From a virus (taxonomy: Duplodnaviria > Caudoviricetes), in IMG/VR virus record IMGVR_UViG_3300037067_012889, positions 192,001-256,000 of that record: a stretch of DNA of 64,000 bases; one strand, 5' to 3'. The position numbers and the translations under genes are program-made. Under the pieces are notes generated by a model. It searched no databases and was not told the DNA's origin. It saw only the letters and a list, made by a program, of their open reading frames with translations. Shown piece after piece: positions 11,926-12,133 of this stretch (the first letter of the stretch is position 1; each line of letters opens with the position of its first letter).

Positions 11926-11945
11926 TTGATCCTCTTAATGATTAG

Positions 11946-12000
11946 AGGGCCTACATGGATTCACGCCTGTAATCATTGGAAGTTAACAATTCCAAAATAA
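11946..12000 (-). ncRNA. degenerate repeat plus putative guide fused to tracr copy 3 (natural single-guide candidate)
   Basis: Minus strand: tracr, then TTGGAA-N8-TTCCAA hairpin, then TGATTACAGG (repeat ends TGACTACAGG), then CGTGAATCCATGTAGGCCCT. Confidence 0.5.
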
Positions 12001-12077
12001 AGGTGACTCTGGCGAGGGCTAACACGGTACGTATTGCCCGCAGCTATTCTCGCCTTCGAGACGTACAGGACGCCTCT
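12001..12077 (-). ncRNA. putative tracrRNA copy 3
   Basis: Identical 77-nt element. Confidence 0.8.
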
Positions 12078-12104
12078 GGATTGAGTCTAATTGTTCCATA
12101 AAAG

Positions 12105-12133
12105 GTTGTAGCATGAAGAATAGAAATCATTAA
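12105..12133 (-). promoter_or_regulatory. internal promoter for tracr3 and the dCas12f genes
   Basis: TTAATG-N17-TACAAC with TCATGC before the -10, matching the recurring phage promoter motif. Confidence 0.55.

What the first reader, a model, noticed from the sequence alone, without database searches (positions are those of the whole stretch)
11930..12133. Probable natural single-guide RNA with its own promoter in the cas leader
Seen: promoter TTAATG-N17-TACAAC (12133-12105), then tracr copy 3, a TTGGAA/TTCCAA hairpin, and TGATTACAGG. That last piece is a repeat 3' end whose C-to-T change keeps a G-U pair with the anti-repeat. It is followed by ~20 nt CGTGAATCCATGTAGGCCCT, directly ahead of the RBS of dCas12f A. 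Inference: a covalent tracr-repeat-guide unit like TnpB omegaRNA or Cas9 tracr-L. It may be a fixed guide, or an autoregulatory device where Cas binding to its own mRNA leader limits expression. I found no convincing target in the window.
Basis: partly seen in the sequence, partly recalled or inferred. Interest (0 to 1): 0.7.

Follow-up and report, generated by a model that had tools for sequence, protein, structure and literature searches.

The report
Shrunken one-guide CRISPR unit in phage
A giant phage makes a CRISPR helper RNA at the front of the message for a non-cutting Cas12f protein, followed by a clipped repeat and one 20-base guide; this is most likely a shrunken one-spacer array rather than a fixed self-regulating guide, but related phages show the same short repeat end being copied to new places in their genomes by an unknown route.

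Summary
Every piece is there. The promoter belongs to a phage-wide class (37 hits vs about 1 expected). The tracrRNA covaries, and its two repeat-pairing segments track the repeat end in 11 loci. TGATTACAGG after it is not chance (about 2e-4). The protein is an AsCas12f1-like, RuvC-dead Cas12f of a 364-kb phage. The slot behind it holds nothing, a decayed handle, an intact 12-nt handle or 5-7 repeats in relatives, and the guide is never shared. The window's handle keeps 5 of the 8 anti-repeat pairs; the tracr in front of array 2 forms the same covalent unit better. No self target exists (4-nt seed in its own promoter), so it is not tracr-L-like. Best reading: a one-spacer remnant of the family's tracr-repeat-spacer co-transcript, at most a weak single guide. 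Side result: short handles also sit at scattered sites as insertions against orthologous empty sites. No RNA data could be obtained. The scan has reported similar dead-Cas12f scaffolds in other phages.

The parts
12105..12133 (-). Phage promoter of the TTAA-N16-TGCTA[CT]A class; +1 probably at 12099
   Evidence: 37 genome-wide hits vs 1.3 expected, only at gap 16; initiator consensus; same motif in front of tracrs in L149, L150/L186. Start site inferred.
12083..12087 (-). 5' GACUC that pairs with GAGUC (12009-12005) and masks the anti-repeat in the free RNA
   Evidence: In the predicted fold; present in window, L149, L122, L124 only
12058..12076 (-). tracr stem 1; loop CCUGU (12069-12065) pairs with the repeat's last 5 nt (pseudoknot)
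   Evidence: 5 of 6 stem pairs show double changes; loop matches repeat end 5/5 in 11 loci with 5 loop types
12011..12054 (-). tracr stems 2-3 (conserved core)
   Evidence: 93% of cells paired, 10 pairs with double changes, 0/500 shuffles
12001..12008 (-). Anti-repeat followed by a U-rich tract
   Evidence: 7-8 of 8 pairs with the cognate repeat in 11 loci
11976..11995 (-). 6-bp linker hairpin TTGGAA/TTCCAA
   Evidence: Pair probability 0.55-0.99; 3% by shuffling; not conserved
11966..11975 (-). Truncated repeat 3' end (10-nt handle, C-to-T, GG lost)
   Evidence: keeps 5 pseudoknot + 5 anti-repeat pairs; trans duplex -3.1 vs -13.0 kcal/mol for the full repeat end
11946..11965 (-). Candidate guide/spacer, unique, no target found
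11931..11948 (-). Small hairpin pairing the guide's 3' end (CCUCU) with the Shine-Dalgarno AGAGG
   Evidence: -6.7 kcal/mol; not tested for conservation beyond inspection
10621..11925 (-). dCas12f A, 434 aa, AsCas12f1-like, RuvC-dead, no C-terminal Zn finger
   Evidence: Profile E 2e-29 and Foldseek E 2e-20 to AsCas12f1; RuvC-I Asp is Thr270, RuvC-II Glu is Gln369
10531..10619 (-). tracr copy directly in front of casB, no handle
9308..10513 (-). dCas12f B, 401 aa, 41% identical to A
12184..12689 (-). tracr (12689-12596) + leader + array 1, directly upstream of the finding
8678..8982 (-). tracr (8982-8894) + leader + array 2; first repeat pairs with its tracr in cis over 8 bp
   Evidence: Pair probability 0.96-1.0
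7370..7540 (-). Array 3, no tracr of its own
5811..5831 (-). Orphan handle with an 8-nt duplication, in place of the Shine-Dalgarno of the orthologous gene in phage G001

Best explanation
It is the family's normal promoter-tracr-cas leader plus a one-spacer remnant. The phage promoter makes one transcript: tracrRNA, U-tract, linker, clipped repeat end, one spacer, then dCas12f A mRNA. The main products are the ~100-nt tracrRNA ending at the U-tract (it loads crRNAs from the arrays) and, by read-through, the cas message. The slot between tracr and casA is a variable array site in these phages; here it has shrunk to, or received, a single 10-nt handle. Uncut read-through RNA can fold into a single-guide shape (5-bp pseudoknot + 5-bp anti-repeat helix) only with protein help and should be outcompeted by full crRNAs, so it is at most a minor guide with a lineage-specific spacer aimed outside the phage. 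Shown: sequence, promoter class, scaffold covariation, variable slot, no self target. Inferred: transcript ends, processing, weak or absent loading.
For: tracr directly in the cas leader with no handle in about 15 family loci, not all independent. Slot contents in phage casA orthologues: none (L160), decayed (L149), 12-nt handle + spacer + second partial handle (L124), 5 repeats (L122, L127), 7 repeats (L150, L186); the states are mixed on the tree. Guides unshared. Anti-repeat helix 5 bp vs 7-8 bp in all 11 cognate tracr-repeat pairs; in-cis probability 0.01, forced fold 3.5-4.4 kcal/mol worse before the pseudoknot. Array-2 tracr makes a better cis unit. Clipped handles are common in these phages. 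No self target; own-genome seeds at background.
Against: A handle with the same C-to-T change sits in this slot in three orthologous leaders (65-79% protein identity), intact and ideally spaced in L124 (8 bp, probability 0.8-1.0, but computed without the missing 5' part of that tracr). All 10 remaining nt in the window can still pair. GATT is enriched in clipped handles (8/23 vs 4/80, Fisher p 0.0006, sequences not independent), which fits either ageing or a distinct class. ViennaRNA cannot score the pseudoknot (about -5 kcal/mol) or protein binding, and also gives near-zero cis pairing for three normal tracr-array units.
Confidence: 0.5

Rival explanations
1. A selected, working natural single-guide RNA: dCas12f binds the uncut tracr-linker-handle-guide RNA and silences a host or rival-phage gene by binding DNA without cutting; the linker hairpin brings the handle next to the anti-repeat.
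For: Handle recurs in the slot in 3 orthologues; hairpin stacks next to the helix in the forced fold; two more close tracr-handle joins (L149 second tracr, 0-nt linker; G000 C1:9905-9943); pseudoknot fully Watson-Crick. Lack of an outside target says little, because no ordinary spacer found one either.
Against: Shortest anti-repeat helix seen; guide and linker not conserved; closest relatives have lost or replaced it (L149 decayed, L122 array plus new promoter); every tracr copy ends in a U-tract or terminator hairpin, which should cut the RNA off before the handle.
Confidence: 0.25
2. RNA-level autoregulation: dCas12f (with or without crRNA) binds the tracr in its own mRNA leader and lowers, or frees, translation or read-through. 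The handle would let this happen without crRNA.
For: tracr lies 10-80 nt ahead of the cas start across the family; U-tract pairs with the casB Shine-Dalgarno and the guide's 3' end pairs with the casA one; distant members carry a terminator-like hairpin between tracr and cas.
Against: The layout needs no handle (most loci lack it); with 5-7 repeats in the slot the coupling is lost; the hairpins are weak and differ between loci; co-transcription alone explains the layout.
Confidence: 0.15
3. The handle is a by-product of a process that copies repeat ends into new sites (recombination on short AGG homology, or copying from guide RNA at bound sites), here landing behind a tracr; the 'guide' is then simply old leader DNA.
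For: Clean ~24-bp insertion of a handle element in G002 against empty orthologous sites in G000 and G001; the same 26-27-bp element at 5 sites; window 5811-5831 replaces a Shine-Dalgarno; frequent 8-nt duplications of the repeat end.
Against: No empty-site orthologue of this leader can be aligned past the U-tract; arrays in the same slot offer a simpler origin; mechanism unknown. Partly compatible with the best explanation.
Confidence: 0.07
4. tracr-L-type DNA autoregulation: the guide steers dCas12f to its own promoter.
For: Position in the cas leader; dead nuclease would repress without cutting.
Against: Longest 5' seed in own promoter + tracr is 4 nt; 7 nt over the other 36 promoters, as shuffles give; no 7-nt seed in window 5000-13000 outside coding DNA; best genome seed 11 nt inside a gene (C1:291831), equal to background. 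tracr-L uses 11 nt.
Confidence: 0.03

Closest known systems
Type V-F1 AsCas12f1 / SpCas12f1 tracrRNA:crRNA (PMC8548392, PMC12255294)
   Same: Protein fold; stem 1 + pseudoknot + stem 2 core and a repeat:anti-repeat stem; 5'-end pairing reminiscent of the head-to-toe stem.
   Different: Nuclease-dead and C-terminally truncated; tracr about 90-100 nt, not 153-169; lies in the cas 5' leader, not between cas and array; only 12-13 nt of the repeat pair; four copies; no cas1/cas4.
CRISPR-array-associated dCas12f cluster noted by Hoffmann et al., Nature 2026 (PMC13472631, Ext. Data Fig. 1a,b)
   Same: Dead Cas12f with C-terminal truncation, next to arrays, covarying RNA upstream of the array, proposed repression.
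   Different: Their example is a Chitinophagaceae MAG targeting an efflux promoter; here phage, two paralogues, tracr in the cas leader, clipped handles. Membership of the same clade not tested.
dCas12f-sigmaE single gRNAs (same paper)
   Same: Chimeric scaffold + 3' guide, proposed to come from collapse of tracr + crRNA; this unit looks like such a collapse in progress.
   Different: Those gRNAs lie downstream of dcas12f, have conserved targets and a sigmaE partner; none of this is seen here.
Cas9 tracr-L (10.1101/2020.05.21.102756)
   Same: tracr extended by a repeat mimic that can fold back in cis.
   Different: No 11-nt match to the cas promoter; guide not conserved; type V polarity.
Single repeat units / mini-arrays (10.1101/2023.03.03.530964)
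   Same: A lone degenerate repeat upstream of the effector gene with no conserved target, as described for V-A SRUs.
   Different: Here it is co-transcribed directly behind a tracrRNA and cut to exactly the tracr-pairing part.
TnpB omegaRNA / TldR
   Same: Scaffold followed by a 3' guide; shared stem 1-pseudoknot core.
   Different: Not at a transposon end, not overlapping the gene's 3' end; scaffold is a true tracr serving arrays.

Membership tests
Type V-F Cas12f dual-RNA system | Cas12f fold | tested here: met
   Foldseek 8dzj E 1.9e-20, TM 0.62; profile E 2e-29
Type V-F Cas12f dual-RNA system | tracrRNA with stem-1 loop pseudoknot and anti-repeat | tested here: met
Type V-F Cas12f dual-RNA system | Active RuvC (D, E, D) and Zn finger | tested here: not met
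   T270, Q369; Gln in 115/147 relatives, no CxxC pair in any
Array-associated dCas12f (Hoffmann 2026) | Dead, C-terminally truncated Cas12f beside arrays, no adjacent sigmaE | tested here: met
Array-associated dCas12f (Hoffmann 2026) | Same clade on the Cas12f tree | not tested
Natural single-guide RNA | Scaffold, repeat mimic and guide in one transcription unit | tested here: met
   Promoter class and order of parts; by sequence only
Natural single-guide RNA | Repeat:anti-repeat helix forms in cis | tested here: inconclusive
   5 bp possible, probability 0.01, pseudoknot and protein not modelled
Natural single-guide RNA | Uncut RNA accumulates on the effector | not testable with these tools
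Cas9 tracr-L-type autoregulator | Guide seed matches the cas promoter | tested here: not met
   4-nt seed only
Cas9 tracr-L-type autoregulator | Guide-target pair conserved in relatives | tested here: not met
   Guides of window, L124, L149 unrelated
TnpB omegaRNA | RNA ends at a transposon right end, overlapping or following the tnpB 3' end | tested here: not met
   RNA lies 5' of the gene and pairs with CRISPR repeats
Single repeat unit (SRU) | Lone, partly degraded repeat outside the array in a cas locus, no conserved target | tested here: met
   at 10 nt it is below the 16-bp threshold used in that paper

The most novel reading that the evidence does not exclude
These phages, lacking Cas1/Cas4, create new guides by copying the 10-13-nt repeat handle into new genomic sites, so that the native DNA behind the insertion becomes the guide (as the flank does for TnpB, but with the tracr supplied in trans). 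Where a handle lands right behind a tracr, as in this leader, a working natural single guide arises: the dual-to-single-guide collapse caught in progress.
Probability: 0.12. Interest if true: 0.8.

Novelty: new variant of a known kind. Interest (0 to 1): 0.42.

Why it matters
As a remnant it is minor, but it fixes the anatomy of a very short (about 90-100 nt tracr + 12-13 nt handle) Cas12f scaffold in a large dead-Cas12f family (235 clusters at E below 1e-30) that papers have only noted in passing. If the fused RNA works, L124 and this unit are ready-made tests of the proposed collapse of tracr + crRNA into single guides, and a compact CRISPRi scaffold. If handles are actively copied to new sites, that would be a Cas1-independent way to make guides.

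Tried and rejected
Target searches: own genome, two related phage contigs (62, timed out before its shuffle control; 89), IMG/VR 18-mer 0 hits, 15-mer 20 hits with at most 18/20 and no shared flank, chance level, GenBank phages, plasmids, 401 genomes of the phylum of a Lentisphaerales MAG (97, 101: hits only to repeat or AT-rich parts). The host is unknown, so the last is weak; no PAM could be derived. An ordinary spacer also found nothing. Rfam: no match. TGATTGCAGG behind the tracr in L136 is the anti-repeat of that locus, not a handle. IMG/VR search for anti-repeat + handle gave only L149's contig as a true tracr. The 15-mer tracr scan (17) was mostly chance. C1:9805-9945 is not found by the tracr model, so it is only a 3' remnant. 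A leaderless peptide in the tracr 5' end: frame not conserved. Second promoter in the linker: spacing does not fit. 5'-end/linker 7-bp helix: 3% by shuffling, probability 0.2, not conserved. One search used a misregistered structure; one search is the valid one. The L185 row used a repeat string not found verbatim and is left out. P0002, P0004, P0006, P0007 loci could not be fetched.

Full report
Setting. The window is C1:192001-256000 of a 363,885-bp virus record rated complete. On the minus strand: 340-aa ORF, tracr, array 1, the finding, casA (10621-11925), tracr, casB (9308-10513), small ORF, tracr, array 2, ORFs, array 3. The genome has two Cas12f-like genes, four tracrs, no cas1 or cas4. 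CasA is AsCas12f1-like by profile (E 2e-29) and predicted fold (Foldseek E 2e-20). RuvC-I Asp is Thr270, RuvC-II Glu is Gln369 and the protein ends before the Zn finger; 115 of 147 relatives have the same Gln and none has the CxxC pair. The family has 235 clusters at E below 1e-30.

Observation. All parts are at the stated places. The promoter is not picked up by a generic scan but belongs to a phage class, TTAA-N16-TGCTA[CT]A, seen 37 times against 1.3 expected and only at that spacing; the class initiator suggests +1 at 12099 (inferred). The handle has about a 2e-4 chance of lying in the slot. The 6-bp hairpin is real but modest (3% by shuffling) and absent in relatives.

The scaffold is a true tracrRNA. 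In 15 aligned copies 93% of cells pair and 10 of 19 pairs show double changes (0/500 shuffles, slid controls 29-49%). In 11 loci with different repeats the stem-1 loop matches the last 5 nt of the cognate repeat 5/5 and the anti-repeat matches the preceding segment 7-8 of 8. This is the stem 1 / pseudoknot / stem 2 / repeat-duplex plan of Cas12f1 guides (PMC12255294), in shorter form. Unlike As/SpCas12f1, where the tracr lies between gene and array (PMC8548392), this family puts it in the cas 5' leader, ending in a U-tract or a terminator-like hairpin.

Is the handle conserved? Partly. About 15 family loci, and every casB, go straight from tracr to ribosome site. Among phage casA orthologues the slot holds nothing (L160), a decayed TGATTATAG (L149, 79% identical protein), an intact 12-nt handle with a 19-nt spacer and a second partial handle (L124), 5 repeats (L122, followed by a new promoter; L127) or 7 repeats (L150, L186). 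These states are mixed on the protein tree, and the sequence after the handle differs in every case. So the slot is a variable array site, and the guide is not fixed.

Would it fold as a single guide? The handle lacks the GG and the A before it, so 5 of 8 anti-repeat pairs remain, one of them G-U; the trans duplex drops from -13.0 to -3.1 kcal/mol. In cis the helix has probability 0.01 because a 5' GACUC masks the anti-repeat; forcing it costs 3.5-4.4 kcal/mol, about what the unmodelled pseudoknot could repay. Folding is therefore inconclusive, but the unit is not special: the tracr in front of array 2 pairs with its first repeat over 8 bp at probability near 1, and L124 does so over 8 bp across a 6-nt loop. 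A covalent tracr-repeat-spacer transcript is the default layout here.

Target. The longest 5' seed in its own promoter and tracr is 4 nt; across the other 36 promoters 7 nt, as for shuffled guides; the best genome seed is 11 nt inside a gene, the same as background for all spacers. tracr-L needs an 11-nt promoter match, so DNA-level autoregulation is rejected. Outside searches were blank, but so were those for ordinary spacers, so an outside target is neither shown nor excluded.

A wider pattern. Clipped handles occur away from arrays: at least four in this genome, five in G002, one or two in G001, and right after the casA stop in L122, L124, L149; reversed-pattern controls give zero exact matches. 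The five in G002 share a 14-15-nt AT-rich prefix found nowhere else, and one is a clean ~24-bp insertion against empty orthologous sites in G000 and G001 with native DNA following it; the orphan at window 5811-5831 stands where G001 has a Shine-Dalgarno. One G001 orphan shares handle variant and 9 following nt with an array unit (rough chance 0.003, one of ten sites, noticed after the fact). The C-to-T variant is enriched in clipped handles. How they spread is unknown; the phage's group II-like reverse transcriptase has no shown link.

Mechanism, committed. Most likely (0.5) the transcript yields tracrRNA and cas mRNA as in the rest of the family, and the handle plus 20 nt is a one-spacer remnant that loads weakly or not at all. 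A working lineage-specific single guide that silences an outside gene gets 0.25, RNA-level feedback through the leader 0.15, a stray handle insertion 0.07, tracr-L-type control 0.03. No RNA data could be had, so all statements on RNA ends and loading are inference.

Known context. The system works like the array-associated dead Cas12f cluster noted by Hoffmann et al. (PMC13472631), who also propose that dual guides collapsed into single gRNAs; clade membership was not tested. The lone repeat resembles the SRUs of 10.1101/2023.03.03.530964. My paper searches found no description of a tracr-handle fusion in a type V cas leader, within the library's limits. Verdict: real, new variant of a known kind, interest 0.42.

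Noticed in passing
G002:C1 183-208 (+), 3406-3431 (+), 12782-12807 (-), 14305-14330 (+), 48783-48808 (+); loci L162-L166: Same 26-27-bp element (AT-rich prefix + 12-nt repeat end) at five intergenic or gene-end sites; one is a clean insertion against empty sites in G000 and G001.
   Followed up: partly
G000:C1 9905-9943 (+), 273640-273666 (+), 137404-137490 (-): Three distant handles share a GGATC[CT]AA prefix with nested 5' extents; the first carries the tracr 3' end, the third is the end of a two-repeat mini-array at a junction empty in G002.
   Followed up: partly
window 5811-5831 and 5430-5438: Orphan handle with an 8-nt duplication replaces the Shine-Dalgarno seen in G001; a decayed copy lies after the paralogous gene end.
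   Followed up: partly
L149:9498-9594: A tracr joined with no linker to a 10-nt repeat end, then a degenerate array.
   Followed up: partly
L122:5950-6001: casA has its own promoter and starts at the ATG of the tracr 5' leader; the tracr in between is deleted.
   Followed up: no
G001:C1 36700-36735 (-) and L149:11533-11555: Orphan handle and an array unit share the GATT variant and the next 9 nt.
   Followed up: partly
genome-wide, e.g. window 12133, 13756, 14803, 19495 (-): Strong phage promoter class TTAA-N16-TGCTA[CT]A, 37 copies, clustered at C1 54-128 kb; also in G001 and G002.
   Followed up: yes
window 10513-10535: U-tract after the casB tracr pairs with the casB Shine-Dalgarno; similar in L122.
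   Followed up: no
G000:C1 359718-361094 (L224:4718-6094): Group II intron-like reverse transcriptase with YADD, directly upstream of a Rad50/SMC-like gene.
   Followed up: partly
window 15517-21001: Two large ORFs with many ~60-aa repeats ending in LRPDWF, one fused to a helicase-like N-terminus.
   Followed up: no
window 5466-7263: LemA and TPM-domain genes (host-type operon) next to array 3.
   Followed up: no
L150, L167, L127, L149 arrays: Frequent 8-nt duplication of the repeat's 3' end directly after a repeat, and many truncated repeats, in phages where no cas1 was seen nearby.
   Followed up: no
sample SRR18595300: Holds at least four related phages with this system (window-type casB, L124, L160, L150-type): a natural place to look for targets.
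   Followed up: no
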